In this document: positions 5,562-51,804 of the stretch, one piece after another
How positions within the stretch are numbered: the stretch's first letter is position 1
How the letters are laid out: every line of letters begins with the position of its first letter
Assembly (NCBI GenBank): GCA_049968235.1
Contig: JBMFRC010000006.1
Coordinates: 1-64,000 of the forward strand
Origin: Candidatus Hydrogenedens sp.
Lineage (GTDB): Bacteria; Hydrogenedentota; Hydrogenedentia; Hydrogenedentales; Hydrogenedentaceae
DNA: 64,000 nt
Direction of reading: 5' to 3'
Translations under genes and position numbers: made by a program
Notes under the pieces: model-generated
What the model was told of the DNA's origin: nothing
Databases searched by the model: none
The model's input: the letters and a program-made list of their open reading frames with translations, nothing else

Positions 5562-7460
5562 TTATTCTAAATCTATCCCACTTAATATTTTACTTACAAT
5601 AATAACAAAATTTTCTTCATTAGCTTCCCAATTTCTTGGCTCTTTGTTGTATATCATTAATATTTTATTCATTTTTTCACTCTTATTATGGCGAATAGAA
5701 GTAAAGATAAAAGATTCTGCTTCTAATGATTTTGTCCATAAATCGGAACGATAATCCTGTTGAGCAGAGCTGATTGTCAATATCTCAGACCATTCAAGGT
5801 TTTCGATAATAACCTTACAATTATGAATATGATATTTTTCTTCATCATTGACTATATAAATAGGCGACAAAATGTCATTTTCTCTGTCTATTTTCCAAAT
5901 CCCTACATTTTCTATTTTTAATGCGTTCTTCATTATTTCTAAAATGTTTCTCATTTTTTCTTCGTATGTTTTATTTTTATCATTGGAAATCAAAATCATA
6001 TCTCTTAATGCTATGACAAAACCCTGTATCTTTGATTTTTCTTTTGTATCAGCATCTATCTTTTTTATGTAATATTGATTTAACGATTCTATTTGTCTTT
6101 GGAGTCTGATATTTTCTCTGTATAAACTATTTACCGTTTCAATAGGAATTCCTCCTTTGCCTTCCTCGGAAAAGATAAATATGCTTTTATCTTTTTCTGT
6201 TTTGAATTCTTTGCCCGATATACCTTCTTTGTCAGTTTTTATATCTACGGTCCAAAATTTCCAGAAATATAAAATAGAGTATATTTTGTTCATTAATGTT
6301 TCATATTCAATAATCCAGAAATGTATGGGTGATTCTTGTCCTTCGACTTTTGGATTTTCCAACCAATGCGATATTTCTTTAATAGGATTTGTCAATAGAT
6401 AGCCCAGCAGAATTGCCAAAAGAACAATTACAAAAAAACAGATTAAAAATAAAAAAATAATATTCCTGTTTGTATTCGTTATATCGGAACTTTGTGGAAT
6501 ATTAAAAACACATATTAATGGAATGTTATACATAAATAAATATTCTTGCACTACAAGCAAACCATGTATTGTTTTCTGGAAATAAGGAGTTTCTCTTCTT
6601 TTATTTAATATGATATTTTTTATTTCATCAGGAAGATTTTGTAAAGAAGATGAGCGAACAATATCACGATTTGAAACACTTTCCATTCCCAACTTGCAGA
6701 CAATATACTTATCACTAAGGATATATGTATATACTGAACAATCTCTATATATATCCGATATAATAGTCTGCAACCATGACCAATCTATTTCCCATGATAC
6801 CACTGAAAATGGAGAATCATCGAACCCAATAGCCATAGCCAATCTCGAATTTATAGAAGGTCCAATTTCATTTATTTCGGGGGATGTAAACCAAATTTTA
6901 GGTATCCCTTCTCTATTCTGCATATTTTGTTGTAAACATAATGCAACAGATTCTTTATACCATTCATTATTTGTCATACTCTGGTCAGGAGATACCTCTT
7001 CCACTTCTTCATCCAATAATTGTGTTCCATCTTCTGTCCATGTAGCTGTTTTTTTTATAAAGCCTTTAGCCCCACCTGTAGTAAGAGAGACCGTTTTCCA
7101 ACCTGTATTTGCACGAAGAATTTTATACTCATATTTATTCGATAATACTAACTCAAAAGATTTTATAAACTTGTTTTTTTGTAATATTGTTGCAAAAAAA
7201 AGATTTAATAATATTCTGTCTGTTGTATTAATTGTTTTTTTAGATAATGATGTTCTAAGGGTTTCAATAATGTCACATAATTGTTCATCCGATTTTTCTA
7301 TTCTTTCTAAAGATATTTTATAATTGCTTTTTGTAATGGAATCGAAACTTGTAGAGTTGTAAAAAACAACATCCTTTTTCCAGAATGAAATAAATATAAT
7401 GGATACGAACAAAAAACAGATTATAAATATTACAATTATAATACCTCTTATAAGAATCAT
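5562..7460 (-). CDS. Two-TM sensor-like membrane protein (extracytoplasmic domain plus cytoplasmic coiled-coil and GAF-like domain; no output domain)
   Basis: 632 aa. There is an N-terminal TM helix, a loop of about 290 aa, then a second TM helix. A coiled-coil region follows (RENIRLQRQIESLNQYY), and the C-terminal ~150 aa look GAF-like. No kinase, GGDEF or HD motifs are seen. Confidence 0.4.
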   Translation of the reverse strand: MILIRGIIIVIFIICFLFVSIIFISFWKKDVVFYNSTSFDSITKSNYKISLERIEKSDEQLCDIIETLRTSLSKKTINTTDRILLNLFFATILQKNKFIKSFELVLSNKYEYKILRANTGWKTVSLTTGGAKGFIKKTATWTEDGTQLLDEEVEEVSPDQSMTNNEWYKESVALCLQQNMQNREGIPKIWFTSPEINEIGPSINSRLAMAIGFDDSPFSVVSWEIDWSWLQTIISDIYRDCSVYTYILSDKYIVCKLGMESVSNRDIVRSSSLQNLPDEIKNIILNKRRETPYFQKTIHGLLVVQEYLFMYNIPLICVFNIPQSSDITNTNRNIIFLFLICFFVIVLLAILLGYLLTNPIKEISHWLENPKVEGQESPIHFWIIEYETLMNKIYSILYFWKFWTVDIKTDKEGISGKEFKTEKDKSIFIFSEEGKGGIPIETVNSLYRENIRLQRQIESLNQYYIKKIDADTKEKSKIQGFVIALRDMILISNDKNKTYEEKMRNILEIMKNALKIENVGIWKIDRENDILSPIYIVNDEEKYHIHNCKVIIENLEWSEILTISSAQQDYRSDLWTKSLEAESFIFTSIRHNKSEKMNKILMIYNKEPRNWEANEENFVIIVSKILSGIDLE

Positions 7461-7520
7461 AAATATTGCCCTAATTTATTAGTATATATTAAAGAAACTT
7501 AAATATGAAAGGAAAATATA

Positions 7521-9680
7521 ATGTTTACATTTTTATTATTATCTTTAACTCTTTTCCATCAATCTCAAGAACAACCAATTGAGAATATAACAGTAACAAA
7601 AGAATCGTTTATGAATTTCAGAACTTGTTTTCAAACTTCTCAGGATTTCGACCCTTTAATGGATATAGCATCAGATGTAGCCATTGTATATGGAACATCA
7701 CATGATTTTCAGGAAAAAATAACCAGTTGGAGAGAACAAGGATATCGAACTGCTTATATGACCGGGATTTCCTGGGGTAATTATGCAAGTTATTATCAAA
7801 CAGAAAATGGATTAAAAAAGGAAGAGATACAAACAGATAAAACTGGTAAACTATGGATGCATGGGCACAGCACTACTGTTGGTTATAATGTTCCTACACC
7901 CAACTATGTTGAATATATTAAAACTATATTAATACCTCCATTAGAAAACCGTGTAGAAAGTATATACTTAGAAGAACCTGAATTTTGGGCAGTTACAGGA
8001 TGGAGTGATGCTTTCAAACAACTCTGGGAAAAATATTATGGTGAGCCATGGTCTCCCCCTAATCAATCCATTGAAACACAGTACAAAGCCAGTTTATTAA
8101 AATATAAATTGTATACAAATGTTTTAACAGAAGTATTTAAATTTGTAAAAGAATATGCAAAGAAAAATAATTTTCAAATAGGTTGTTATGTTCCTACACA
8201 TTCTTTAATTAACTATGCCCAATGGCGAATTGTAAGTCCGGAGTCACGATTGACGCAGATTGAATATTGTGATGGCATAATTGCTCAGGTATGGACAGGA
8301 ACAGCACGCTCAAAACACCATTATAAAGGTATTGCCCGGGAAAGGACTTTTGAGACAGCATATTTAGAATATGCACAAATGGTTGGGATGGTTTCATCTA
8401 CACAAAAGCATCTTATTTTCCTCGCTGACCCCATTGAGGATAATCCCAACTACGATTGGCATGATTATAAATACAACTACGAATGTACTGTATTGGCATC
8501 ATTATTATTCCCAGAAGTTTCCACATTTGAAGTAATGCCTTGGCCTGAAAGAATTTTCAAAGGTAAATACTCAAAATCTAAAGAAGAACGGGATATAAAA
8601 ATAAATATTATTCCTGAGTTTGCAACGGAACTGCTCACTATAATTAATACATTAAATGATATGAAACAGGAAAAAGTCGAGTGGATTTCCGGTAATTATC
8701 CTATAGGAGTAATAGTATCCGACACATTGATGTTTCAACGGGCAGAACCCTATCCAAGTCATCCCAATTTGAACTGTTTCTATGGAGTAGCAACACCCCT
8801 TATCAAAAATAGTATCCCATTAAAAATTATACAAATGGAGCATTTATTGACCTACCAGCCTCTTAAAAATATAAAAATTTTATTACTAACCTATGAAGGG
8901 CAAAAACCATTAAATAAAGAGTATCACAATATTATTAGAGATTGGGTAATAAACGGAGGAAGTTTACTTATTATTGATGATAATTCAGACCGATATAATG
9001 AACTTAATAATTGGTGGAAAAATGAAGGATACAATTCGCCGCTTGAACACTTAATCAAAACTCTCTGGGGTGATAAAGAACCTGATGAGGATATGACGCA
9101 AGTAGGTAAAGGATATGTTCGGTGGATAAAACGTAGTCCATCTATATTAAGTCTTGATAATGAGGGAGCAGAACACCTGTTAAATTGGGTAAAGGAGTTA
9201 TCTAATAAATCAGGAATAAATGTGGATTATAAGAATTACATTCACTTAAAAAGGGGGCCTTATCATATTTGTTCAGTTCTGGATGAATCTGTATCTGATT
9301 TACCTTATAAAATATCGGGTAAATTTATCAATCTTTTCAATCCTGAATTAAAAGTTGAAGAAGATGTTTTGTTGTATCCTTCTAATCGTGCTTTGCTTTT
9401 AGACATCAATTCTCTGCAATCAAAGAAAAGAGTTCCGTCCATAATTGCTTCTGCAGGGAGGATAAGAAGTCAAAAAGTAGGAGGGAATCGGTTTCATTTT
9501 ACTGTACGCGGACCTTCAGGAATACCAGGTAAAGTTGTTATTTTCTATGAGAAACAACCACAAAAAATTGTAACATCAGATATGACAGAGTTCCAACAAT
9601 ATTATGATAGTAAAAACCATTTACTTTATATTGATTTTACCCATCAGGGTAAGGACATTCATTTTGAGATTGACTTGTAA
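7521..9680 (+). CDS. Large secreted hypothetical protein with signal peptide
   Basis: 719 aa with a hydrophobic N-terminal leader (MFTFLLLSLTLFHQSQEQ). It is rich in aromatic residues, like glycan-active enzymes, but no catalytic family is recognised. It sits divergent to the sensor-like gene. Confidence 0.5.
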   Translation: MFTFLLLSLTLFHQSQEQPIENITVTKESFMNFRTCFQTSQDFDPLMDIASDVAIVYGTSHDFQEKITSWREQGYRTAYMTGISWGNYASYYQTENGLKKEEIQTDKTGKLWMHGHSTTVGYNVPTPNYVEYIKTILIPPLENRVESIYLEEPEFWAVTGWSDAFKQLWEKYYGEPWSPPNQSIETQYKASLLKYKLYTNVLTEVFKFVKEYAKKNNFQIGCYVPTHSLINYAQWRIVSPESRLTQIEYCDGIIAQVWTGTARSKHHYKGIARERTFETAYLEYAQMVGMVSSTQKHLIFLADPIEDNPNYDWHDYKYNYECTVLASLLFPEVSTFEVMPWPERIFKGKYSKSKEERDIKINIIPEFATELLTIINTLNDMKQEKVEWISGNYPIGVIVSDTLMFQRAEPYPSHPNLNCFYGVATPLIKNSIPLKIIQMEHLLTYQPLKNIKILLLTYEGQKPLNKEYHNIIRDWVINGGSLLIIDDNSDRYNELNNWWKNEGYNSPLEHLIKTLWGDKEPDEDMTQVGKGYVRWIKRSPSILSLDNEGAEHLLNWVKELSNKSGINVDYKNYIHLKRGPYHICSVLDESVSDLPYKISGKFINLFNPELKVEEDVLLYPSNRALLLDINSLQSKKRVPSIIASAGRIRSQKVGGNRFHFTVRGPSGIPGKVVIFYEKQPQKIVTSDMTEFQQYYDSKNHLLYIDFTHQGKDIHFEIDL

Positions 9681-38206: not shown

Positions 38207-39610
38207 TTATTTTTTTAGTTCTGGCAAACTTGCAGCTGCAATAGATTGTCCTACTCTTCTATTTTTTTCGTCCGGCAATTGGACATTAATTTTTTCATTT
38301 ATCTCAGGAAACTCTGTTTTTAATACTTTTAGACATTCTTCTAACATGATAGGACCTCCATTGCCGGAGGTACACCGTCCTAAAATGAGTACATGCTTTA
38401 TATCATAGAAATCATTGTAATGAGCAAGAGTATATCCCAAATAGGTACCCATAGTTTGCCAAATTTTAATAACTTCGGGATTCCCTTTTTCCAATTCTTC
38501 TTGTATTAGTTTCAATTTTTCTGCATCGGTGATATTTTCAGGAATTTTTATGCCTGCTTTCGGAGCAAGACGAAACACACATTGTTGAGAAAAATAATTG
38601 GCACCTACTCCCCTATCTCCTGACCATTCTTCTACGGGAGCATCGGGATTATAATCCACAGGGGCAAAGGCAAGTTCATTTAACCAATCTGTTATATTCC
38701 CTGCAGTGGTAACATAGCCACCCGCTTCACTGGAACCCATAGCAATTCCTAATACAGCATTGTCACCAATAGACATCGAACCTGCCAATGCTGTAACCTC
38801 TCCATCATTAACAACAACCAGCGGTACTCCCAGTTCTTTTGACATACGATTAAACAATTCATGCACCTCACCAAAACGTTCTTTAGGAACCCCTCTAAAT
38901 AATGATGCTATCATGGCACGATTATTGACATATACTCCAGCAGCACTTCCACCGACAGCATCCAATCTCGGCATTTTTGATGCGGCTGTTTTTATGGCTG
39001 TCATTATTTCATTATAGTGATAGTTGGGGTCTGTCTGTTTACGGGGTTCCCATATTGTCTCTTCGCTATATACCACTTCTCCATCTATGACAGCGGATGC
39101 TTTACGGTCAGAAGCACCTAAATCAAATCCGACACGACAACCATCCATGTGCCTACCCAAACGTTGTGATGTCTCGTTTGCATGAGGGACATCATTTTCC
39201 GATTTACATGGAACTATCGTAAATGGATTTTCATACACATCTTCTCCCATAAATTTATAGTCGAAGGCTCTCGCTCCTTGTAAAGAATAAGTTGCCTCTA
39301 AATAACGAATTAATGGTTTTGGAGCATAAACATATACCTTCCATCCTCCTTTTTGCCATAGTAAAAACTTTAATATTCTTTCTATATAATAAAATCCTGA
39401 TTCAAATAAAGGATGTCCTTCTGGAAATACTTCTGTCTCAAAACAAGATATAGAATTGTTTAACCTTTCTAAAGCAATAATAACTTTTACTGCATCTTTT
39501 GTTTCTTTCACTTTCTTTTTAAATTGGTCGTTTACTAATTTTGGTGGAATAAAACCGGGGTCCATAGGAGGAACTATTTGTGGTTTTACTAACATCCAAT
39601 CCAGATTCAT
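38207..39610 (-). CDS. ASKHA-superfamily sugar-kinase-like protein (ROK-like, lacks Zn Cys motif; ~150 aa N-terminal extension)
   Basis: It has a phosphate-1-like GFDLGAS motif and a VVVNDGEVTALAG motif resembling ROK ENDANAAALGE. No CxCGxxGC motif is present. Confidence 0.45.
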   Translation of the reverse strand: MNLDWMLVKPQIVPPMDPGFIPPKLVNDQFKKKVKETKDAVKVIIALERLNNSISCFETEVFPEGHPLFESGFYYIERILKFLLWQKGGWKVYVYAPKPLIRYLEATYSLQGARAFDYKFMGEDVYENPFTIVPCKSENDVPHANETSQRLGRHMDGCRVGFDLGASDRKASAVIDGEVVYSEETIWEPRKQTDPNYHYNEIMTAIKTAASKMPRLDAVGGSAAGVYVNNRAMIASLFRGVPKERFGEVHELFNRMSKELGVPLVVVNDGEVTALAGSMSIGDNAVLGIAMGSSEAGGYVTTAGNITDWLNELAFAPVDYNPDAPVEEWSGDRGVGANYFSQQCVFRLAPKAGIKIPENITDAEKLKLIQEELEKGNPEVIKIWQTMGTYLGYTLAHYNDFYDIKHVLILGRCTSGNGGPIMLEECLKVLKTEFPEINEKINVQLPDEKNRRVGQSIAAASLPELKK

Positions 39611-42905: not shown

Positions 42906-44324
42906 CTACACAACAAATAAGTTCTTTGTCATTCGATAAAGATAAATAGGAACATATCTTATAAGTGATAAAGGTCGGGGATAAATTTTTAGTAATCTGT
43001 AAATTCTATTTGGCCTTAAAAAGAACTGTCTATTTGCTTTTCGCTGGTAATAGAAAAGAACATCATCAGGTAAGTCAGTAAGATTAATTCTCACACCAGC
43101 AAAATCTATGTTCATATAATCAAAATTCTTCAATTTTTCCGGTTTATTTTGTTTAAGCCACTCAAATAATGGTGTTCCTGGGAAAGGTACCACCGTAAAA
43201 AAACTTGCAGTATGTAACATCGAATTTGTTGCAATATCTATTGTCATTTGAAGTTCTTCTTCTGTTTCTGTCGGGAAACCCATCATACAAAAGCCATTAG
43301 CATATACCCCTTTATTGACCATTATTTCTATTCCTTTTATAAATTTTGGAATATCAAGATTTTTACAGGTAAACTTTTGCATTCGTGGTGAACCTGTTTC
43401 TAAAGCAAAAGAAGACATATAAGTTCCTGCGGAGCATAAAGCCTCCGCAATATCTTCTGTAACTAAATCCCCTCTAATCGCATTGGGAAATGTTAATTTA
43501 ATATTTAATCCTTTTTGTCTCACTAATTCAGAAAATTGTATTACCCTCTGTTTGTTAAAATTAAAATTATCATCAAGAAATTCAAATTCATTAACACCAT
43601 ATTTGTGGTTTAACCATTCAATTTCTTCAATAATTCGTTCAGGTGAACAAAATCGTATCTTTTTCCCAAATATAGAATGACACCACATACACTGGTATGG
43701 ACAACCTCTACTAGTAACTAAACACATATACTTTCTTGGAGGTAAAGGGGTCATAGATTGTAAACCCCAGTATTGCTGTATATTAATTAAATCGTATTCA
43801 GGAAACGGAAGTTTATCCAAATCCGGTTCAACTGGTAATAACCCCGGATTTTCTATAACTTCCTCTGTTTCATCTTTCCATATTATCCCTGAAATATTTT
43901 TAAGATTCTTTTTATGTGGATAACTTTCCACGATTTGCTTAAATGCTATTTCACCTTCTCCTGGCACCACTATATCTAAATGCCTGCAGTCTGAAAAAGC
44001 CTGTACCTTTACAGATGAAGCATGTGGACCACCTAAAACAATCCAACAATTAGGAAGTGATTCTTTTATTTTTTCAGCGATTAGGGGTATCAAACCTGCA
44101 AAAACTGTAGATGATGATAAGCCAACAATATCCGGTAAAAACTGATATATTTCTTTTGTTAGTTCTTTAGGTGTATCATTTTTTACTTTTTGATTGATTA
44201 ATTTTATTTCTACATCTTTAATTTCCCTTTTTAAATAGCCTGCAAGATACATAATTCCCATAGGTGGTGTAGCCAATGGATACATCGGTTTCCTATACCC
44301 CAGATTTATCAATACTATCTTCAT
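42906..44324 (-). CDS. B12-binding-domain radical SAM enzyme (class B rSAM-like), paralogue A
   Basis: 472 aa. It has an N-terminal cobalamin-binding Rossmann-like domain and a CxxxCxxC motif (GCPYQCMWC). Its central ~370 aa are identical to the neighbouring paralogue. Its 80-aa C-terminal tail and 20-aa N-terminus are unique. Confidence 0.8.
   Translation of the reverse strand: MKIVLINLGYRKPMYPLATPPMGIMYLAGYLKREIKDVEIKLINQKVKNDTPKELTKEIYQFLPDIVGLSSSTVFAGLIPLIAEKIKESLPNCWIVLGGPHASSVKVQAFSDCRHLDIVVPGEGEIAFKQIVESYPHKKNLKNISGIIWKDETEEVIENPGLLPVEPDLDKLPFPEYDLINIQQYWGLQSMTPLPPRKYMCLVTSRGCPYQCMWCHSIFGKKIRFCSPERIIEEIEWLNHKYGVNEFEFLDDNFNFNKQRVIQFSELVRQKGLNIKLTFPNAIRGDLVTEDIAEALCSAGTYMSSFALETGSPRMQKFTCKNLDIPKFIKGIEIMVNKGVYANGFCMMGFPTETEEELQMTIDIATNSMLHTASFFTVVPFPGTPLFEWLKQNKPEKLKNFDYMNIDFAGVRINLTDLPDDVLFYYQRKANRQFFLRPNRIYRLLKIYPRPLSLIRYVPIYLYRMTKNLFVV
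43147..44268. repeat. Direct repeat copy 1 (~1.12 kb, virtually identical to 44731..45852)
   Basis: Nucleotide-level identity was observed by eye along the whole core. Only one difference was noticed (CATTCGTGGTG vs CATTCGCGGTG), and it is synonymous. The period is 1584 bp. Confidence 0.9.
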
Positions 44325-44489: not shown

Positions 44490-45914
44490 TTATTTTACAA
44501 TAATTCCTTTCAATAATCGCTGTAATAGCATAGGAAAATACATAGTAAGATGTAATGGATGAGGATAAATTTTGATAATTCTATATATTCTATCAGGTTT
44601 AGAGAAAAACTTTATGTATGCTCTCCGTTGATATTTATAAAATACTTCATCTGGAAGGTCTGTTAAATTAACTTTGATACTCCCATATTCTGCATTATTG
44701 TAATTTATATTTTTAACCTTATTCGGGCGATTTTGTTTAAGCCACTCAAATAATGGTGTTCCTGGGAAAGGTACCACCGTAAAAAAACTTGCAGTATGTA
44801 ACATCGAATTTGTTGCAATATCTATTGTCATTTGAAGTTCTTCTTCTGTTTCTGTCGGGAAACCCATCATACAAAAGCCATTAGCATATACCCCTTTATT
44901 GACCATTATTTCTATTCCTTTTATAAATTTTGGAATATCAAGATTTTTACAGGTAAACTTTTGCATTCGCGGTGAACCTGTTTCTAAAGCAAAAGAAGAC
45001 ATATAAGTTCCTGCGGAGCATAAAGCCTCCGCAATATCTTCTGTAACTAAATCCCCTCTAATCGCATTGGGAAATGTTAATTTAATATTTAATCCTTTTT
45101 GTCTCACTAATTCAGAAAATTGTATTACCCTCTGTTTGTTAAAATTAAAATTATCATCAAGAAATTCAAATTCATTAACACCATATTTGTGGTTTAACCA
45201 TTCAATTTCTTCAATAATTCGTTCAGGTGAACAAAATCGTATCTTTTTCCCAAATATAGAATGACACCACATACACTGGTATGGACAACCTCTACTAGTA
45301 ACTAAACACATATACTTTCTTGGAGGTAAAGGGGTCATAGATTGTAAACCCCAGTATTGCTGTATATTAATTAAATCGTATTCAGGAAACGGAAGTTTAT
45401 CCAAATCCGGTTCAACTGGTAATAACCCCGGATTTTCTATAACTTCCTCTGTTTCATCTTTCCATATTATCCCTGAAATATTTTTAAGATTCTTTTTATG
45501 TGGATAACTTTCCACGATTTGCTTAAATGCTATTTCACCTTCTCCTGGCACCACTATATCTAAATGCCTGCAGTCTGAAAAAGCCTGTACCTTTACAGAT
45601 GAAGCATGTGGACCACCTAAAACAATCCAACAATTAGGAAGTGATTCTTTTATTTTTTCAGCGATTAGGGGTATCAAACCTGCAAAAACTGTAGATGATG
45701 ATAAGCCAACAATATCCGGTAAAAACTGATATATTTCTTTTGTTAGTTCTTTAGGTGTATCATTTTTTACTTTTTGATTGATTAATTTTATTTCTACATC
45801 TTTAATTTCCCTTTTTAAATAGCCTGCAAGATACATAATTCCCATAGGTGGAGATATAACGCGATATAGGAAAGAACTCCTTCCCATATTTACTAATATT
45901 ATCCTACTTTTCAT
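44490..45914 (-). CDS. B12-binding-domain radical SAM enzyme (class B rSAM-like), paralogue B
   Basis: 474 aa with the same core as paralogue A. Its C-terminal tail is divergent (RPNKVKNINYNNAEYGSIKVNL... versus KPEKLKNFDYMNIDFAGVRINL...). Confidence 0.8.
   Translation of the reverse strand: MKSRIILVNMGRSSFLYRVISPPMGIMYLAGYLKREIKDVEIKLINQKVKNDTPKELTKEIYQFLPDIVGLSSSTVFAGLIPLIAEKIKESLPNCWIVLGGPHASSVKVQAFSDCRHLDIVVPGEGEIAFKQIVESYPHKKNLKNISGIIWKDETEEVIENPGLLPVEPDLDKLPFPEYDLINIQQYWGLQSMTPLPPRKYMCLVTSRGCPYQCMWCHSIFGKKIRFCSPERIIEEIEWLNHKYGVNEFEFLDDNFNFNKQRVIQFSELVRQKGLNIKLTFPNAIRGDLVTEDIAEALCSAGTYMSSFALETGSPRMQKFTCKNLDIPKFIKGIEIMVNKGVYANGFCMMGFPTETEEELQMTIDIATNSMLHTASFFTVVPFPGTPLFEWLKQNRPNKVKNINYNNAEYGSIKVNLTDLPDEVFYKYQRRAYIKFFSKPDRIYRIIKIYPHPLHLTMYFPMLLQRLLKGIIVK
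44731..45852. repeat. Direct repeat copy 2 (~1.12 kb)
   Basis: See copy 1. The ORF-track duplicates 43483..43680 and 45067..45264 (identical 65-aa antisense ORFs) are by-products of this repeat. Confidence 0.9.
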
Positions 45915-45956: not shown

Positions 45957-48032
45957 TTACCTATTTAACAATACTTCTAAACTATCTCCTAAAGGGAAAA
46001 GGCAAGATTTATTCAATTTTTTACAATAATTATATATGTAACTTTTACTCCTATATTCTATCAATGGTTTAATAAATTTTTTTAATACCTCTTTTTCTTT
46101 ATATGCTATGGTAAGGTAATGTTCACAATCATCATTTTTTTTATTCATATAACAAATAATAGATTTCAACAAATATATGTCTCCAAATCGAGGATATTTA
46201 CTCAAAAGGTAATCACACATTTTGTCTGCAATATAATAATGTCCATCTTTTATTAATCCTGAAATTGTATAAATATTAATCCACGATAATATAGGCCAGG
46301 TAGCAATATATTTTTGAAGAATATATAGGTTTTCTCTTTTCGCTTTTTCGTTGTTCGAAACAATACCTATTTCATCCAATAATTTATCATAATTAATATT
46401 GTTTGTATTTATAAGGACATCACAGGTATTTTTTCCCACATTCCTAAAATTTTTTGCAACTTGACCTATATATAAATTATATTGACCCGGGTATACTTTC
46501 CAGTATACATCCAAACTATTATTATTAATACACTCTGTCAACTTAGCAATAGGGTCAGAATTATAAATAGCATATAATGTTATTGGCTCAATAACTATCC
46601 ATATCCTATTTTTTTCGTTTTCATTTAATTTTTCTTTTATTTCTTCCATTGCTCCGAATAAAGTAAAAAAAGATTGATATTTCAGGTCATTCCTTTTTAT
46701 ATAAATCTTATTTATATCCCAGAATGTGGTTGTTCTTTGTCCCAGAATAATGTCATTTAACCCTGCATTCGCCTCTATAAACTCCGTTGCATTTTTATAA
46801 TCCGTTCTATTCTTAAATGATATAAAACTAACACATTGTCCTAAATAAACAGACATTAAAAGAATTGCAAGAAAATATGACAGTATTTTAGGATTAAATT
46901 TAAAGATAATCGCAGAAGATATGATATAAATCAATGGTAAGGCATAGTAGTTATACAAAGGATGGAAAACAGGTTTATGGGTAATAACTACAATACTTAA
47001 TAATGATATAACGGGAACAAGTAAAGATAAAGTAATAAAAACTTCTCCCCTATTTTTTATATCCTTATTTTGTTTTATTTTCCATAAAATACTTAAAATA
47101 TAAATAATTGTTGTTATCACAAAAATTCCAAGAATGAAATAATCGAGAACAAATATTTTTCTTACCAATATACTTAAAATAAGGCTATCTATATTCAGGA
47201 TATTTGTCTTCCATGCAGGGATTAATTCCTCAGATATTCCAACACTATCAAAACCGAATAATCTATAAAATAATACTTTTATTTCAGTCCCTCCTCTACT
47301 GTCTATAACATTAAATAAAAATGGAGACATTTTGATATACCAAATTATCCATGGAATAACAGATAAAATGGACAGCACAGACCACAACATTTTTTTTCTT
47401 AGTAACGGTTTTGGAAAACTAAAAAGAAGTACAGGAATTTGGAACAATGGTGTTAGAACATATATCGCATGGAACCATGGCAAAATCAAATTGGAAATGA
47501 AACTAACAAGACACCACTTCCAGTTTTCTTTCTTATGGCTAAAATACATCCACAATCCTGAAAAAGAAAGAATAGCAAAAAATTGAATAAATGCATAACA
47601 TTTCAGTTCTTGATGAAACCATATATTAAAAGGAGATAAACAGAAAAGTAAACAGGCAAGGAAAGATGCTTTTCTTCCTACCAATAATTTTCCAAGAAAA
47701 TAGGTCGTTACAATTGCTAAAACACCAAAGGTTATGGGTAATACCCTCCATAACCAATCGATTTCTGGAAATAAATTTATCCAGTAATACAGAATAAAAG
47801 CAGAGGCAGGGGATATACCATAATCAGGACTATTGATATATAAAAGTCTAAAATAATCAAGTATATTACAAAATTTCGCATTACCAATGACTACATATTC
47901 ATCAAACCAAACCGATTGTTCATTTAATTTATATAAACGAAATATAAAGGAAAGAAAAATTATAACTATAATATATAATAAATCACTTTTAGTAAATTGT
48001 TCTCTGGCATTTTTAGTTTGATTCGTTTGCAT
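45957..48032 (-). CDS. GT-C fold membrane glycosyltransferase (family 39/83-like, ArnT/PMT-type) with C-terminal TPR-like domain, paralogue 2
   Basis: 691 aa with more than 10 TM helices. The first extracytoplasmic loop carries RLYKLNEQSVWFDEY, an ArnT/PMT-type DE motif. The C-terminal ~150 aa are soluble and helical-repeat-like. Confidence 0.65.
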   Translation of the reverse strand: MQTNQTKNAREQFTKSDLLYIIVIIFLSFIFRLYKLNEQSVWFDEYVVIGNAKFCNILDYFRLLYINSPDYGISPASAFILYYWINLFPEIDWLWRVLPITFGVLAIVTTYFLGKLLVGRKASFLACLLFCLSPFNIWFHQELKCYAFIQFFAILSFSGLWMYFSHKKENWKWCLVSFISNLILPWFHAIYVLTPLFQIPVLLFSFPKPLLRKKMLWSVLSILSVIPWIIWYIKMSPFLFNVIDSRGGTEIKVLFYRLFGFDSVGISEELIPAWKTNILNIDSLILSILVRKIFVLDYFILGIFVITTIIYILSILWKIKQNKDIKNRGEVFITLSLLVPVISLLSIVVITHKPVFHPLYNYYALPLIYIISSAIIFKFNPKILSYFLAILLMSVYLGQCVSFISFKNRTDYKNATEFIEANAGLNDIILGQRTTTFWDINKIYIKRNDLKYQSFFTLFGAMEEIKEKLNENEKNRIWIVIEPITLYAIYNSDPIAKLTECINNNSLDVYWKVYPGQYNLYIGQVAKNFRNVGKNTCDVLINTNNINYDKLLDEIGIVSNNEKAKRENLYILQKYIATWPILSWINIYTISGLIKDGHYYIADKMCDYLLSKYPRFGDIYLLKSIICYMNKKNDDCEHYLTIAYKEKEVLKKFIKPLIEYRSKSYIYNYCKKLNKSCLFPLGDSLEVLLNR

Positions 48033-48036
48033 ATCA

Positions 48037-50130
48037 TTATCTATTTTTCAAAAGAACAGATAGTATGGATTTATTCAATATATGATAGCCCTTTTGTTCT
48101 AATTCTTGAATGAGCAACACATCCTTATCTCCTATTCCAGAGATATTTCCTCCGTTCCACAAGTTTTTATACATATCCTTAAAAATATAATTATTTCTAA
48201 AAATACCCTCTATTATTTTTCGGGATTCATCTTGTTTGTGTTTAGAAAATAAAATTAATCCTTTTAATAATATTACATGATAGAATTCCGGAGATTTATT
48301 TATAAGATAATCACATATTTTCTCTGCAACATCTATATCTCCATTCTGTATCATCGAATTTATAATTAAAATATAATTATATGAATAAAAAGGTTGCCAA
48401 ATAGCGAAGTATCTTTGAAGTATTTCTTTTCTTCGTTGCTTTTCTATCTCATCGTTAACTTTCATTTGAAACTCTTCTATAAGGTTATCATAATCTATTT
48501 CGCCAAAGGGGCAATTTTGAATCTTTTCTTTATTAATATTTTTGTAAGAGTCCTTCTCTATTCTTAAAACATAGAGGTTAAACTTTCCCGGGAAGTGTTT
48601 TATATTCACATTAAAACCATGAGGAGATAAATTCTTTACTAATATAAATGTTGGATCTTTCTTATAAATCCATGTAATTAATGTTGTTTCCATTAATACC
48701 CATATTGAGTTACTAATCTTTTCTTCCTCCAGTGAAAGTGTGTCAACTACTGTATCAGCAATAGCCTGCAAAGAAAATACAGGATTTAATGAGTAGTCAA
48801 CTCTTTTTTTGTATACCTTCCATGTGTCAAAAACATTGGCTCCTAATTGTAGGTCAAGAACGATATCTCCTTTTTTCACATTCTCTTCCATATATGCTAC
48901 TGCCCTTTTATAATCGGGTCTTAAATTAAAATTTATAAAACCTAAACATTGAAAGGTAAATAAAAAAATAATCATTACTAAAAAAGTGGCTTTAATTAGA
49001 TGTTTATCCCATATAAAAATAGAATACGCAATAATAAGGTATAGAAACGCAAAAGCATGATAGAAATATAAAGGTAGAAAAAATGATTTCCCTGTAATAA
49101 CTCTCAAAGTAAAAAAAGGAAGTATAGAAAAGACAAAAGAATAAAGTAGCAAATACTTTTTTATTTCTCCACACTCTTTTCGCAAATTTGGTATATTTTT
49201 TACCAAATATAAACAGAACACAATAAAAAGAAAAATAGTCGATATAAATAATAAATAGTCAATAAATACCCATTTGTTTAATAAATTATCCCATATTGTG
49301 TTTCTAACTATTTCGACTGTATTTGTTTTCCAATACGGTAATAATTCATTAGAAAGACCAACACAATCAATTCCGAATAAACTTGTCACAATAAATTTTA
49401 TATTTAATGATTCCATTTCAGTAAGAGAAAGATTATATGCAGGTGGTTTTATCCAGAATATCCACAAAATGTAAGGAATTAAAACGGCAATATTTGCTAT
49501 TCCACATAAGATAGTGTCCCTAACTTTATTCTGTCTTGTAAACCATATCAACAAAAAAAACTGTATAAATGGAACTGCAAAATATACAGCATGGAACCAG
49601 GGAAGCAATAAATTAGATAGTGTTCCTATAAAAAACCATTTCTTACTTTTGCCACTACTAATGTAATTTAGAAAGGCAAACCATGATAGTAAAGAAAGGA
49701 ATAGTATAAAAGCATATCCTTTCAGTTCCTGGTGAATATAAATGTTAAATGGTGATAATACCATCAATAACCCTGCAAGAAAGCCAACCTTCCAGTCTTT
49801 TACCCATTTCCCAAGAAAATAAAGAAGTACTATAGACAGAACTCCAAAGCAGATAGGTAAAAGCCTCCATAGCCAGATATTATCCGGAAAAATATGTATC
49901 CAAAAATAATATAGAACTAACCCTCCCGGTGAAATCCCATATTCAGGGACATTTATAAACAGTAATTTAATATTTGTCCACAAATCACATATTTTGATAT
50001 TTGCTATATATACATATTCTTCATGCCATATAGACTGTTCTGTAATACGGTATAATCGCAAAGCAAAAGCAATAAGAATTAGAATAATTAGGAGAAATAT
50101 ATCTCTGTATTTGGAAATGTAATCATTCAA
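48037..50130 (-). CDS. GT-C fold membrane glycosyltransferase (family 39/83-like, ArnT/PMT-type) with C-terminal TPR-like domain, paralogue 1
   Basis: 697 aa. It carries RLYRITEQSIWHEEY and is roughly 40-50% identical to the downstream paralogue throughout. The two genes are 4 bp apart. Confidence 0.65.
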   Translation of the reverse strand: MNDYISKYRDIFLLIILILIAFALRLYRITEQSIWHEEYVYIANIKICDLWTNIKLLFINVPEYGISPGGLVLYYFWIHIFPDNIWLWRLLPICFGVLSIVLLYFLGKWVKDWKVGFLAGLLMVLSPFNIYIHQELKGYAFILFLSLLSWFAFLNYISSGKSKKWFFIGTLSNLLLPWFHAVYFAVPFIQFFLLIWFTRQNKVRDTILCGIANIAVLIPYILWIFWIKPPAYNLSLTEMESLNIKFIVTSLFGIDCVGLSNELLPYWKTNTVEIVRNTIWDNLLNKWVFIDYLLFISTIFLFIVFCLYLVKNIPNLRKECGEIKKYLLLYSFVFSILPFFTLRVITGKSFFLPLYFYHAFAFLYLIIAYSIFIWDKHLIKATFLVMIIFLFTFQCLGFINFNLRPDYKRAVAYMEENVKKGDIVLDLQLGANVFDTWKVYKKRVDYSLNPVFSLQAIADTVVDTLSLEEEKISNSIWVLMETTLITWIYKKDPTFILVKNLSPHGFNVNIKHFPGKFNLYVLRIEKDSYKNINKEKIQNCPFGEIDYDNLIEEFQMKVNDEIEKQRRKEILQRYFAIWQPFYSYNYILIINSMIQNGDIDVAEKICDYLINKSPEFYHVILLKGLILFSKHKQDESRKIIEGIFRNNYIFKDMYKNLWNGGNISGIGDKDVLLIQELEQKGYHILNKSILSVLLKNR

Positions 50131-50188: not shown

Positions 50189-51463
50189 TTAACCAATTTG
50201 AGCGAGGATTTTTGCCAATCTTCTTTCTGATTGTATGGCTGAACGGACAGTATGATAGTTAATTTTCCACGCATGAGCCATGTAATCCCATAACAGATTA
50301 TTATTTTCATCAAATAAGGGGAACCATTCCCCAACTGCATGATTAATCACATAATCCATAACAAAACGATGTACATTTTCATATGCATCAAAGTATTTTT
50401 CATCACCAAATAATAAATAAGCATCTAACATAGCCACAAGTGTTTCTGCCTGTTGCCAAAATTCTTTATTCCTTTCCCGTGCAGGGCCATCATTAGGTCC
50501 TTCACAATATACACCCCCTTTTTCCCAATCAATTCCGTATTTTAAACAATGGTCAAACATCTTCTTCATTTTTTCTTTATAAGGTTCTACATCTTCTCCA
50601 ATAATATTCAATGTATGATTTAACAACCAACAAAATTCTACATTATGACCGAAACTGGTATTATTTAATGGCCTCCCTTCCGGGTCATCTGCATCACGGT
50701 CAGAACCCCAAACATTTTTAAATATGATAGCCCGTAAAGGTTTCCAGTCAAAACTGAATTGTGCCATCCCTGTTCCATATTCCGGATGAACCATTTTATC
50801 GTAAATTAGTTTAATTACATTTAAGGTGTCCTGCTTATGTTTAAATGCACCTGTTGCTTCATACAAATTTGTAAAGGCTTCCATCAAATGCATGTGGACA
50901 TCAAATGACTTTCTATCACCACCATACACCCCTGGCTTTTTAGGCGTCCAATCTTTCTCAAAAAATTCGCCAAATCCTCCATGTGCAATATCTACAGCCT
51001 GAGCCTTAATTGTTCTCCATGTTTCTTCAGCAAGTTCAAGGGCTTCTTCATCACCTGATGCCATCGCATACTCACTCAAGCAATAAATACCAAAGGATTG
51101 ACCATACATAATTTTACTTGGGTCAACCGGTGTTCCATCTTTTTCCGTTATCCATATCCAGCCTCTATATTGATTATCCCAAAAATGTTTCTTTAAGAAT
51201 TCTACGCCTTGTTCTGCTATTTTCAGGTATTTCCCATCTCCTAAATTGGCTCGATGTGCAGATGAATAAGTATAAATCATCCGTGCCTGACAAATAAGTG
51301 TTTTTTTTGTCTCGCCTGTTGGTCGCCCTTCACGGTCAAGGTATGTTAAAAAGCCACCATATTCTTCATCAACACCATGCGTTTCCCAGAATGGAAGTAG
51401 TTCATTAAATAAGTGGTTTTGCATTTCTTTCAAAAGTTTTTCCACGCGTTCTTTTGTAACCAT
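50189..51463 (-). CDS. AGE-family (N-acylglucosamine 2-epimerase / cellobiose-2-epimerase / sugar isomerase-like) (alpha/alpha)6-barrel enzyme
   Basis: 424 aa with an N-terminus (LPFWETHGVDEEYGGF...QARMIYTYSSAH) typical of the AGE superfamily. It is the first gene of the minus-strand cluster. Confidence 0.7.
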   Translation of the reverse strand: MVTKERVEKLLKEMQNHLFNELLPFWETHGVDEEYGGFLTYLDREGRPTGETKKTLICQARMIYTYSSAHRANLGDGKYLKIAEQGVEFLKKHFWDNQYRGWIWITEKDGTPVDPSKIMYGQSFGIYCLSEYAMASGDEEALELAEETWRTIKAQAVDIAHGGFGEFFEKDWTPKKPGVYGGDRKSFDVHMHLMEAFTNLYEATGAFKHKQDTLNVIKLIYDKMVHPEYGTGMAQFSFDWKPLRAIIFKNVWGSDRDADDPEGRPLNNTSFGHNVEFCWLLNHTLNIIGEDVEPYKEKMKKMFDHCLKYGIDWEKGGVYCEGPNDGPARERNKEFWQQAETLVAMLDAYLLFGDEKYFDAYENVHRFVMDYVINHAVGEWFPLFDENNNLLWDYMAHAWKINYHTVRSAIQSERRLAKILAQIG

Positions 51464-51775: not shown

Positions 51776-51804
51776 TTGACAATAGTATTAAAATAGTATA
51801 TAAT
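51776..51804 (+). promoter_or_regulatory. Consensus sigma70-type promoter upstream of clpX
   Basis: TTGACA, a 17-nt spacer, then TATAAT. Both hexamers match consensus perfectly, about 75 nt upstream of the clpX ATG. Confidence 0.55.

What the first reader, a model, noticed from the sequence alone, without database searches (positions are those of the whole stretch)
45957..50130. Tandem diverged GT-C glycosyltransferase paralogues with TPR-like C-terminal domains
Two ~695-aa polytopic proteins lie 4 bp apart. They share their topology and the RLY(K/R)...W(F/H)(D/E)EY motif but are clearly diverged. Each ends in a soluble helical-repeat domain (...KMCDYLLSKYPRFGDIYLLKSII... versus ...KICDYLINKSPEFYHVILLKGLI...). 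TPR-tailed GT39-like enzymes are a hallmark of protein or peptide O-glycosylation systems. The duplication pattern here is old, in contrast to the rSAM pair next door.
Basis: partly seen in the sequence, partly recalled or inferred. Interest (0 to 1): 0.5.

Follow-up and report, generated by a model that had tools for sequence, protein, structure and literature searches.

The report
Paired membrane sugar-transferases linked to radical enzyme
Two adjacent, anciently duplicated genes of an uncultivated Hydrogenedens bacterium encode membrane enzymes predicted to attach sugars to cell-envelope targets, and their kind turns up next to one conserved vitamin-B12-type radical enzyme in several bacterial phyla, a pairing I found no description of.

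The parts
48037..50130 (-). GT-C paralogue B ('B-type', 697 aa). It has a polytopic GT-C membrane domain, a periplasmic alpha/beta domain and a TPR-like helical tail.
50014..50022 (-). Loop-1 acidic motif of B: E37-E38-Y39 (WHEEY). The ancestral Asp is replaced by Glu in all B-type orthologues.
   Evidence: Alignments A1 and A2. Motif table across 23 family members.
48934..50130 (-). Membrane (GT-C) domain of B, aa 1-399.
   Evidence: Helix list of the AF2 model. Hydropathy gives 11 segments.
48043..48492 (-). TPR-like helical-repeat tail of B, aa 547-696.
45957..48032 (-). GT-C paralogue A ('A-type', 691 aa), with the same architecture as B.
47895..47903 (-). Loop-1 acidic motif of A: D44-E45-Y46 (WFDEY). 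E45 and Y46 are invariant in the family.
   Evidence: Alignment A1. Motif table.
46821..48032 (-). Membrane (GT-C) domain of A, aa 1-404. It carries the conserved R96, S133-P134, Q141-E142, N181, W186-x-H188 and the long conserved external loop 236-292 (D262..S267..W274).
   Evidence: Invariant columns. AF2 helices. Alternating K+R-rich and K+R-poor loops.
46443..46820 (-). Alpha/beta domain of A (aa 405-530), inferred to be periplasmic.
   Evidence: Five strands alternating with helices in the AF2 model. Conserved R409 and P515-G516. The periplasmic location is inferred from loop charge alternation and from analogy with ArnT and PglB.
45963..46391 (-). TPR-like helical-repeat tail of A (aa 548-690).
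   Evidence: Helix pairs. Profile hits on positions 594-671 to TTC37/SKI3 (E 3.4e-4), the OGT TPR region (4.6e-3) and designed TPRs. Foldseek hit to the FKBP38 TPR domain, E 0.09. One family member (P0016) matches Pfam TPR_16 and TPR_2. Pfam TPR models do not match A or B themselves.
44490..45914 (-). B12-binding radical SAM enzyme 1 (474 aa), 42 bp downstream of A. It is the conserved partner of the GT-C genes.
   Evidence: Pfam B12-binding plus Radical_SAM. CPYQCMWC cluster motif. No NCBIfam equivalog is reached; the best are ApyD 165/750, BchE 139/481 and HpnJ 122/578 bits. Orthologues at 40-51% identity lie next to GT-C genes in other phyla.
42906..44324 (-). B12-binding radical SAM enzyme 2 (472 aa), a near-copy of enzyme 1.
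   Evidence: 89% protein identity. A 1,122-bp repeat (43146..44267 against 44730..45851) has a single mismatch.
50189..51463 (-). AGE-family sugar 2-epimerase/isomerase (424 aa, no signal peptide), 58 bp upstream of B. It is paired with the B-type gene in all Hydrogenedentota loci.
   Evidence: PF07221 E 5e-52. NCBIfam cellobiose 2-epimerase, AGE and mannose isomerase models all score far below cut-off. Synteny. No TM segment or signal peptide.

Best explanation
A and B are two anciently diverged paralogues of a distinct lineage of GT-C (PMT_2-related) integral-membrane glycosyltransferases.

Shown:
- Both have the GT-C fold.
- Both keep the loop-1 acidic motif and a second acidic QE motif.
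- Both carry an alpha/beta domain followed by a TPR-like tail.
- The A/B pair is conserved across Hydrogenedentota.
- The adjacent B12-radical SAM family is linked to GT-C genes in several phyla.

Inferred mechanism:
- As in all characterised GT-C enzymes, each takes a sugar from a polyprenyl-phosphate-linked donor at an active site on the periplasmic face. That site would be formed by D44/E45 (B: E37/E38) and Q141/E142. The sugar goes to an acceptor held by the periplasmic C-terminal alpha/beta and TPR-like module.
- The cytoplasmic B12-binding radical SAM enzyme(s) encoded immediately downstream tailor the sugar or the lipid-linked donor before it is flipped. C-methylation or another radical rearrangement would fit. 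The logic is that of the ArnT pathway: a custom sugar is made inside, placed on undecaprenyl phosphate, and transferred outside.
- The AGE-family epimerase upstream may supply a manno-configured hexose.
- The two paralogues work either as a heterodimer (as Pmt1-Pmt2 and EmbA-EmbB do) or in successive transfer steps.

Acceptor: my leading guess, about 40%, is envelope proteins, by analogy with the only characterised TPR-tailed GT-Cs (TMTC1-4 and TMEM260). An envelope glycolipid or polysaccharide acceptor is nearly as likely.
For: Fold:
- AF2 models have pLDDT 86.8 and 82.0.

Motifs:
- E45, Y46, R96, S133-P134, Q141-E142 and W186-x-H188 are invariant in 17 sequences.
- The loop-1 motif is DE[YF] in the A-type, C-type and outgroup sequences and EE[YF] in all B-type sequences.

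Family-level homology to PMT_2: 13 of 17 members match, best E 1e-13.

TPR-like tail.

Periplasmic C-terminus: K+R-rich and K+R-poor loops alternate.

Conserved block: AGE, B-type GT-C, A-type GT-C and rSAM stay together at 33-81% identity. This holds even where the left flank differs (L015) or the gene order is rearranged (L005, L007/L014).

rSAM link beyond the phylum:
- The Phycisphaerae locus L017 has the rSAM (51% identical) overlapping a tandem PMT_2 pair.
- The spirochaete locus L018 has three rSAM paralogues beside a tandem TMTC-like GT-C+TPR pair, plus a GT2, an NTP-transferase and an epimerase.
- L019 has the rSAM with a SAM-dependent methyltransferase, a carbamoyltransferase and a PMT_2 protein.
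- Of 11 metagenome loci with rSAM orthologues at 40% identity or more and usable flanks, 7 carry a PMT_2, PMT or TPR-polytopic gene within 5 kb.
- Of 32 polytopic neighbours of more distant paralogues, 12 match PMT_2, 3 PMT, 1 STT3, 1 Alg9-like and 1 YfhO. Wzy and Wzx/MurJ-type proteins also occur.
- L021 has the rSAM beside a carbamoyltransferase and a HisH/HisF-like pair.
- The rSAM is conserved at 47-51% across phyla, while the adjacent GT-Cs are not detectably similar by BLAST. That fits a conserved small-molecule substrate for the rSAM and variable acceptors for the GT-Cs.
Against: - No enzymatic, donor or acceptor evidence exists.
- No polyprenyl-phosphate GT2 or flippase gene was found in the parts of the 64-kb window I scanned with Pfam; the ORFs between 15442 and 25511 and those after 59668 were not scanned.
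- A and B fall below the PMT_2 gathering score, and no solved GT-C is hit by sequence.
- The rSAM matches no characterised equivalog, so its chemistry is a guess.
- Four of the 11 rSAM-orthologue loci have no GT-C nearby, and a distant GT-C family member (L016) has no rSAM.
- Much of the Hydrogenedentota synteny also covers clearly unrelated housekeeping genes (ClpX, Lon, LeuRS, IOR). Within the phylum, synteny alone is therefore weak evidence.
- I could not inspect model coordinates, so the membrane parity of segments 75-95 and 120-140 is unresolved.
- The heterodimer idea is pure analogy.
Confidence: 0.55

Rival explanations
1. A and B are bacterial protein O-mannosyltransferases of the TMTC/TMEM260 type. 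The TPR-like tail would recruit periplasmic or outer-membrane protein substrates, and mannose would be transferred from polyprenyl-phosphate-mannose to Ser or Thr.
For: - The layout (about 400-aa GT-C domain plus about 290-aa C-terminal region that is partly TPR, roughly 700 aa in total) mirrors TMEM260 as described in PMC10214176.
- A DE motif sits in loop 1, as in PMTs.
- A family relative (P0030 in L019) has a weak TMEM260_N hit.
- An AGE-family enzyme (a possible mannose-forming epimerase or isomerase) and a ROK kinase lie in the block.
Against: - A and B match none of the Pfam PMT, TMEM260_N or TPR models.
- No candidate acceptor protein lies in the locus.
- Protein O-mannosylation needs no sugar tailoring, so this view leaves the conserved rSAM link and the carbamoyl- and methyl-transferase neighbours unexplained.
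- From general knowledge, not tested here: periplasmic TPR domains also serve as scaffolds in polysaccharide export systems such as BcsC, AlgK and PgaA.
Confidence: 0.3
2. A and B decorate a non-protein envelope molecule with a rSAM-tailored sugar. Candidates are lipid A or LPS core, an O-antigen or capsule-like polysaccharide, or a lipoglycan. They would work like ArnT, GtrC-type or Emb/Aft enzymes. The TPR-like tail would be a docking or scaffold element.
For: - ArnT is the top Foldseek hit. Like A and B, ArnT has a C-terminal periplasmic alpha/beta domain (the ArnT domain is from general knowledge, not tested here).
- rSAM-family neighbourhoods contain typical surface-glycan genes: Wzy_C, Wzx/MurJ-type flippases, a GT2, an NTP-transferase, an epimerase/dehydratase, a carbamoyltransferase and a HisH/HisF-like amidotransferase pair.
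- The C-type paralogue sits beside a secreted alkaline-phosphatase/sulfatase-family protein.
Against: - No lipid A or O-antigen genes lie next to A and B in the window.
- No characterised lipid- or glycan-directed GT-C has a TPR tail (general knowledge).
- The minimal Phycisphaerae operon holds only the rSAM and two GT-Cs.
Confidence: 0.35
3. Only A is catalytic. B, whose loop-1 Asp is replaced by Glu (HEEY), is a regulatory or structural partner in an obligate heterodimer.
For: - The D-to-E change is fixed in every B-type orthologue, while the A-type, C-type and outgroup sequences keep DE.
- Tandem pairs recur independently in Phycisphaerae (40% identical to each other) and in a spirochaete (70% identical).
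Against: - Glu keeps the carboxylate.
- All other invariant residues (E38, Y39, R89, SP, QE, W.H, R404, PG) are retained in B.
- B-type sequences are under clear purifying selection across the phylum.
- Glu acts as the catalytic residue in some GT-Cs such as DPY19 (general knowledge).
Confidence: 0.12
4. The rSAM association is coincidental, and A/B form an independent pair of glycosyltransferases that happens to sit in a conserved syntenic block.
For: - The same block also carries IOR, ROK, MazG, ClpX and Lon genes, which are unlikely to be functionally linked.
- Some rSAM orthologues lack GT-C neighbours, and L016 lacks a rSAM.
Against: - The link survives rearrangement within the phylum (L005, L007).
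- It recurs in at least three other lineages with GT-C partners that are unrelated in sequence.
- About half of the polytopic neighbours of more distant paralogues are also GT-C proteins.
Confidence: 0.15

Closest known systems
ArnT (CAZy GT83; Pfam PMT_2 clan), the undecaprenyl-phosphate-L-Ara4N:lipid A transferase
   Same: [quoted passage not shown] Both have an acidic motif in the first periplasmic loop. Both have a C-terminal alpha/beta domain after the last TM helix. The pathway logic is also similar: a cytoplasmically tailored sugar is delivered on a polyprenyl phosphate.
   Different: No significant sequence similarity (a profile search of PDB sequences finds no GT-C). ArnT has no TPR tail. 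No Ara4N pathway genes are present here. The acceptor is unknown.
PMT/POMT protein O-mannosyltransferases (CAZy GT39; Pfam PF02366 plus MIR)
   Different: PF02366 is not matched. There is no MIR domain in the loop after TM7. The soluble domain here is C-terminal (alpha/beta plus TPR-like). The NCBI label 'glycosyltransferase family 39 protein' on one homologue (P0013) is only a generic annotation.
TMTC1-4 (GT105) and TMEM260, eukaryotic TPR-tailed protein O-mannosyltransferases
   Same: Same overall architecture: an N-terminal GT-C module of about 400 aa, followed by a lumenal or periplasmic C-terminal region with TPR-type repeats. TMEM260 is 707 aa and has the catalytic-type Asp in loop 1 (PMC10214176). 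The spirochaete locus L018 linked to the same rSAM family has true TMTC-like proteins with a YDDD loop and canonical TPRs.
   Different: A and B match none of the TMEM260_N/DUF2723 or TPR Pfam models. They have only about three degenerate TPR-like hairpins, preceded by an alpha/beta domain. They are bacterial, and their acceptor is unknown.
Class B (cobalamin-binding) radical SAM enzymes that tailor sugars or lipids (GenK, Fom3, TokK, AprD4, HpnJ, HpnR)
   Same: The partner genes have the B12-binding plus radical SAM architecture and the CxxxCxxC cluster motif. The best PDB sequence hits are TokK, AprD4 and 9ccb, at E about 1e-13.
   Different: No NCBIfam equivalog is approached (the best score is 165 bits against a 750-bit cut-off). 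I found no report of a class B rSAM functionally tied to GT-C glycosyltransferases.

Membership tests
GT-C glycosyltransferase superfamily (fold level) | A polytopic membrane domain with the conserved GT-C helix arrangement, superposable on solved GT-C enzymes. | tested here: met
GT-C glycosyltransferase superfamily (fold level) | A conserved acidic residue or residues (D/E) at the start of the first extracytoplasmic loop. | tested here: met
   A has D44-E45-Y46 and B has E37-E38-Y39. The E and Y are invariant in 17 sequences. The motif is DE[YF] or EE[YF] in all 23 family members compared.
GT-C glycosyltransferase superfamily (fold level) | Transfer from a polyprenyl-(di)phosphate-linked sugar donor. 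| not testable with these tools
   This needs biochemistry. It is inferred only from the fold.
Pfam PMT_2 (PF13231; ArnT/GT83-like clan) | A score at or above the curated gathering threshold of 26.1 bits. | tested here: not met
   A scores 19.7 bits and B 21.7 bits. At family level, 13 of 17 homologues match at E<=1, best 1.1e-13. The two proteins are therefore remote homologues rather than members by the curated cut-off.
CAZy GT39 (PMT/POMT) | A PMT domain (PF02366) and MIR domains in the large lumenal loop. | tested here: not met
   A and B have no PF02366 or MIR hit at E<=1. The loop 236-292 is only about 57 residues long.
TPR repeat proteins | 34-residue helix-turn-helix repeats recognisable by TPR sequence models. 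| tested here: inconclusive
   The Pfam TPR models do not hit the C-terminal 284-295 aa of A or B, even at E<=10. However, the family profile hits the TPR regions of TTC37 (E 3.4e-4) and OGT (4.6e-3) as well as designed TPRs. One homologue matches TPR_16 and TPR_2. The models show about three antiparallel helix pairs plus a capping helix. Structural hits include the FKBP38 TPR domain, CTR9 and TTC7B. 'TPR-like' is justified; canonical TPR is not.
TMEM260/DUF2723 and TMTC (GT105) O-mannosyltransferases | A match to TMEM260_N (PF11028) or to the TMTC DUF1736/loop-1 'DD' signature, plus canonical TPRs. | tested here: not met
   A, B and the other A1 alignment members have no such Pfam hit. Only the distant relative P0030 has a weak TMEM260_N hit. 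The architecture is analogous.
Class B (B12-binding) radical SAM enzymes (partner genes) | An N-terminal B12-binding domain plus a radical SAM core with the CxxxCxxC motif. | tested here: met
   PF02310 scores 52.9 and 53.3 bits and PF04055 scores 65 and 65.6 bits, all above threshold. The CPYQCMWC motif is invariant in alignment A3. Cobalamin use and the chemistry are not testable here.

The most novel reading that the evidence does not exclude
The B12-binding radical SAM enzyme and its adjacent, usually paired and TPR-tailed GT-C glycosyltransferases form an undescribed envelope glycosylation system. It occurs in Hydrogenedentota, Planctomycetota (Phycisphaerae), a spirochaete MAG and further uncultivated bacteria from metagenomes. 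In this system radical chemistry creates an unusual lipid-linked sugar (for example a C-methylated or rearranged one). Alternatively the rSAM pre-modifies the acceptor. Heterodimeric GT-C enzymes then install the sugar on periplasmic targets chosen by their TPR modules.
Probability: 0.3. Interest if true: 0.7.

Novelty: new variant of a known kind. Interest (0 to 1): 0.5.

Why it matters
Taken alone, the two genes are new and very divergent members of a familiar enzyme class, so that part is ordinary. The recurrent pairing is what could matter. One well-conserved cobalamin-type radical SAM enzyme sits beside GT-C glycosyltransferases that are unrelated in sequence but similar in architecture, and it does so in several phyla of mostly uncultivated bacteria. 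If the link is functional, it would point to a new kind of sugar or donor chemistry in bacterial envelope glycosylation. It would assign a role to a large group of B12-rSAM proteins that currently carry only generic domain-level names or mislabels. It would also provide tractable bacterial counterparts of the TPR-tailed O-mannosyltransferases TMTC and TMEM260, which are implicated in human disease. The proposal can be tested directly by heterologous expression.

Tried and rejected
- **Pfam TPR models** on the isolated C-terminal domains of A and B gave no hits, even at E<=10. The TPR-like call therefore rests on profile and structural evidence.
- **Sequence search of PDB** with the family profile hit no solved GT-C. 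Only fold comparison identifies the family.
- **NCBIfam** gave only faint hits for A and B (MT1671 mannosyltransferase, Agl23, archaeal STT3, all below 25 bits). These were rejected as evidence of membership.
I could not test structural similarity to TMEM260 or to bacterial AlphaFold models.
- **Promoter and terminator scan** of 38-52 kb gave counts at or below the shuffle expectation. Operon boundaries are not resolved.
- **Search for a GT2 polyprenyl-phosphate glycosyltransferase, a flippase or an acceptor gene** in the window found none in the ORFs scanned; the ORFs between 15442 and 25511 and those after 59668 were checked for TM segments only. The scanned flanks are housekeeping genes (SodA, T2SS-F, Tex, DksA, Lgt, MutL, MscK, UvrC, a Mur ligase, MazG, ClpX, Lon, LeuRS).
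- **Further GT-C paralogues?** The two no-Pfam ORFs at 5562..9680 are not paralogues: few TM segments and no hmmsearch hit.
- **Literature searches** for Hydrogenedentes + rSAM + glycosyltransferase, B12-rSAM + GT-C, PMT_2 + radical SAM, and cobalamin rSAM + polyprenyl + glycosyltransferase found nothing relevant.
- **Anaerobic sulfatase-maturating enzyme idea.** I considered this for the rSAMs next to the sulfatase-family gene in the C-type loci. I rejected it because these rSAMs are B12-binding class B enzymes with no sulfatase-maturase family match, whereas sulfatase maturases are, from general knowledge, SPASM-type enzymes. The sulfatase-like protein also lacks the C/SxPxR motif.
- **RiPP reading.** ApyD is the top NCBIfam hit for the rSAM, but at 165 bits against a 750-bit cut-off, and I did not search the cluster for a small precursor ORF. 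I did not adopt this reading.

Full report
**1. The observation**

The window is AT-rich (27-40% GC). A 100%-identical protein fragment annotated from a 'Candidatus Hydrogenedens sp.' MAG (P0002) places it in Hydrogenedentota.

Two long ORFs lie on the minus strand at exactly the reported coordinates. A is 45957..48032 (691 aa, ATG start). B is 48037..50130 (697 aa, TTG start, with an AAGGAG box ending 10 nt upstream). B's TAA stop is followed by 4 nt and then A's ATG.

BLASTP of A against B gives 36% identity over 641 aa (E 3e-123). The description 'tandem, clearly diverged paralogues' is correct.

**2. What the proteins are**

Sequence libraries say little.
- Pfam gives only PMT_2, below its gathering score: 19.7 and 21.7 bits against 26.1.
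- NCBIfam gives only faint hits.
- A profile of the family finds no solved GT-C by sequence.

Structure is decisive.
- With a 17-sequence alignment (A1/A2), AlphaFold2 gives confident models. A has pLDDT 86.8 and pTM 0.88. B has pLDDT 82.0 and pTM 0.85. The two have the same order of secondary-structure elements.
- Foldseek against the PDB returns only GT-C enzymes in its top 42 hits, led by ArnT (E about 2e-7).

The fold is therefore GT-C, roughly equidistant from all solved branches.

- The first extracytoplasmic loop carries W-F-D44-E45-Y46 in A and W-H-E37-E38-Y39 in B. The Glu and Tyr are invariant in the family.
- Further invariant residues are R96, S133-P134, Q141-E142, N181, W186-x-H188, a conserved long loop at 236-292, R409 and P515-G516.

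**3. The C-terminal region**

After the last TM helix (about residue 404) the models show two parts.
- An alpha/beta domain with five strands, at residues 412-527.
- About nine helices at residues 548-690, arranged as 12-14-residue antiparallel pairs.

Pfam TPR models do not recognise this tail in A or B, even at E<=10. Four other lines of evidence do point to a TPR relationship.
- The family profile's only PDB sequence hits are TPR regions: TTC37/SKI3 (E 3.4e-4), OGT (4.6e-3), designed consensus TPRs, CTR9, Prp6 and FKBP8. All fall on profile positions about 594-671.
- One distant family member matches Pfam TPR_16 and TPR_2.
- Foldseek hits the FKBP38 TPR domain.

'TPR-like' is a fair description; 'TPR' in the strict sense is not shown.

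Short loops alternate between K+R-rich and K+R-poor in a pattern that puts the QE motif, the 236-292 loop and the C-terminal module on the periplasmic side. I could not inspect coordinates, so the exact TM count is unresolved. It is 11 TM helices plus a re-entrant segment, or 13.

**4. Age and distribution**

Word-indexed search finds only about 16 close homologues, all from Hydrogenedentota-type assemblies. An exhaustive profile search finds 707 cluster representatives at E<1e-30. More than 100 of these align over the full length and are about 700-730 aa long. The architecture is therefore a wider, unnamed family.

An NJ tree of 23 members from the fetched loci resolves three orthologue groups in Hydrogenedentota.
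- A-type: WFDEY and FKNRTDY motifs.
- B-type: WHEE[YF] and RPDY motifs. The Asp-to-Glu change is fixed in all of them.
- C-type: ITFDE[FY] motif. This type is absent from this window.

**5. Genomic context within the phylum**

Nine independent loci show the same block. The order is:
- AGE-family epimerase
- B-type GT-C
- A-type GT-C
- B12-binding radical SAM enzyme of about 475 aa, in one or two copies
- IOR alpha and POR gamma
- ROK kinase
- an unknown protein of 467-470 aa
- MazG

The block persists when the left flank changes: L015 has a riboflavin operon instead of ClpX-Lon-LeuRS. Three sub-pairs survive rearrangement.
- AGE stays with the B-type gene (L007/L014).
- The A-type gene stays with the 475-aa rSAM (L005, L008).
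- The C-type gene stays with a 514-524-aa rSAM and a secreted sulfatase-family protein (L006, L007).

IOR can be absent (L008). The window's two rSAM genes share a 1,122-bp stretch with one mismatch, flanked by sequence that is 56-66% identical. That indicates gene conversion or an assembly collapse.

**6. The link to the radical SAM enzyme extends beyond the phylum**

The rSAM family is large, and its members are 45-51% identical to the window's enzyme in other phyla. I looked at three such relatives.
- **L017 (Phycisphaerae).** The rSAM overlaps the first of two tandem PMT_2 genes (652 and 675 aa, 40% identical to each other).
- **L018 (spirochaete MAG).** Three rSAM paralogues sit beside a tandem pair of TMTC-like proteins. 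These have a YDDD loop, about 11 TM helices and canonical TPRs, and are 70% identical to each other. A 239-aa GT2, an NTP-transferase and an epimerase/dehydratase are also there.
- **L019.** The rSAM lies with a SAM-dependent methyltransferase, a carbamoyltransferase and a 727-aa PMT_2 protein of the A/B family.

A metagenome scan with the rSAM alignment returned 80 loci. Eleven of them have orthologues at 40% identity or more and usable flanks. Seven of those eleven carry a polytopic PMT_2, PMT or TPR-bearing protein within 5 kb, and several of these have canonical TPR tails. One of the other four has a carbamoyltransferase and a HisH/HisF-like pair, and two have arrays of rSAM paralogues.

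Among 32 polytopic neighbours of more distant rSAM paralogues, 12 match PMT_2, 3 PMT, 1 STT3, 1 Alg9-like and 1 YfhO. There are also Wzy- and Wzx/MurJ-type proteins.

The rSAM is conserved at about 50% identity across phyla, whereas the adjacent GT-Cs are not detectably similar to A or B by BLAST. I found no paper describing this association.

**7. Mechanism**

Shown:
- the GT-C fold and acidic motifs
- the alpha/beta plus TPR-like tail
- the conserved A/B pair
- the conserved rSAM neighbourhood

Inferred:
- A and B take a sugar from a polyprenyl-phosphate donor at a periplasm-facing site and transfer it to an acceptor engaged by the periplasmic C-terminal module.
- The cytoplasmic class B rSAM tailors the sugar or the lipid-linked donor. 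The contexts with carbamoyl-, methyl- and amidotransferases, a GT2 and an NTP-transferase are typical of sugar tailoring.
- The AGE enzyme may supply a manno-configured hexose.
- The paralogues act as a heterodimer (precedents: Pmt1-Pmt2 and EmbA-EmbB) or in sequence.

The acceptor is open. The only characterised TPR-tailed GT-Cs, TMTC1-4 and TMEM260, are protein O-mannosyltransferases (PMC10214176), which favours proteins. The glycan-locus contexts and the resemblance to ArnT favour an envelope glycolipid or polysaccharide. I put these at about 40% and 35%.

**8. Comparison with known families**

These proteins are not GT39: they lack the PMT domain and the MIR domain. By the curated cut-off they are not PMT_2 members, though they are homologous at family level. 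They match no TMEM260 or TMTC sequence model. They work like ArnT, PMT and TMTC-type enzymes and share the architecture of TMEM260.

**9. Verdict**

On their own the genes are divergent new members of a known class. The conserved, cross-phylum B12-rSAM/GT-C neighbourhood is an undescribed variant worth testing. Interest is 0.5.

Noticed in passing
window 43146..44267 and 44730..45851 (within the rSAM genes 42906..44324 and 44490..45914, minus strand): A 1,122-bp direct repeat with a period of 1,584 bp and a single mismatch, flanked by sequence that is only 56-66% identical. The two B12-rSAM genes are identical in their central roughly 370 codons but diverged at both ends. This points to gene conversion between old paralogues or to an assembly collapse in the MAG. 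In other genomes the two copies are distinct.
   Followed up: partly
L017 10001-15328; L018 2529-11413; L019 219-6909; L022, L024, L025, L026, L031, L032: Orthologues of the window's rSAM (40-51% identical) lie beside GT-C genes that are unrelated to A and B in sequence. These GT-C genes are often tandem pairs with TPR tails. They occur in Phycisphaerae, a spirochaete MAG and several metagenome contigs. This looks like a conserved module that has not been described.
   Followed up: yes
L006 15219-21082; L007 4752-12064; L009 10144-12198: Some Hydrogenedentota genomes carry a third paralogue group (C-type GT-C, ITFDE[FY] motif). In L006 and L007 it sits with rSAMs of 514-524 aa and a secreted sulfatase/alkaline-phosphatase-family protein of about 675 aa that has a signal peptide and no C/SxPxR motif; the neighbours of the L009 copy were not examined. 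This module is absent from the window.
   Followed up: partly
L021 884-5245; L019 1901-4584: NodU/CmcH-type carbamoyltransferase genes recur next to rSAM orthologues. L021 adds a HisH/HisF-like amidotransferase pair and L019 a SAM-dependent methyltransferase. These contexts are typical of sugar tailoring.
   Followed up: partly
L028 353-11750; L023 482-5561: Tandem arrays of ORFs of 470-546 aa. L028 has seven, of which three were confirmed as B12-binding rSAM (two by Pfam, one as the scan match). L023 has three rSAM paralogues. No GT-C gene is nearby. Their function is unknown.
   Followed up: no
window 38207..39610 (-): A 467-aa cytoplasmic protein with only a sub-threshold ROK-like hit. It always lies directly downstream of the ROK kinase in the Hydrogenedentota block (467-470 aa orthologues). 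It belongs to no described family.
   Followed up: no
window 5562..7460 (-) and 7521..9680 (+): Two divergently transcribed ORFs (632 aa, about 3 hydrophobic segments; 719 aa, with a hydrophobic N-terminus that may be a signal peptide) have no Pfam match at E<=1e-5. They are not related to the GT-C family.
   Followed up: partly
L011 (CAZJTZ010000015.1): A contig labelled 'uncultured Nitrospirales bacterium' carries a gene series whose order and sizes match the Hydrogenedentota-type block (ClpX-sized ORF, AGE, B-type, A-type, rSAM, IOR, ROK, 470-aa ORF); only the two GT-C genes were confirmed by homology. This suggests a binning or labelling error, or possibly horizontal transfer.
   Followed up: no
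window 51776..51804 (+): A perfect sigma-70 consensus (TTGACA, 17 nt spacer, TATAAT) sits upstream of clpX, in the divergent intergenic region shared with the AGE/GT-C gene string. Overall promoter-like counts in the region do not exceed the shuffle expectation.
   Followed up: no
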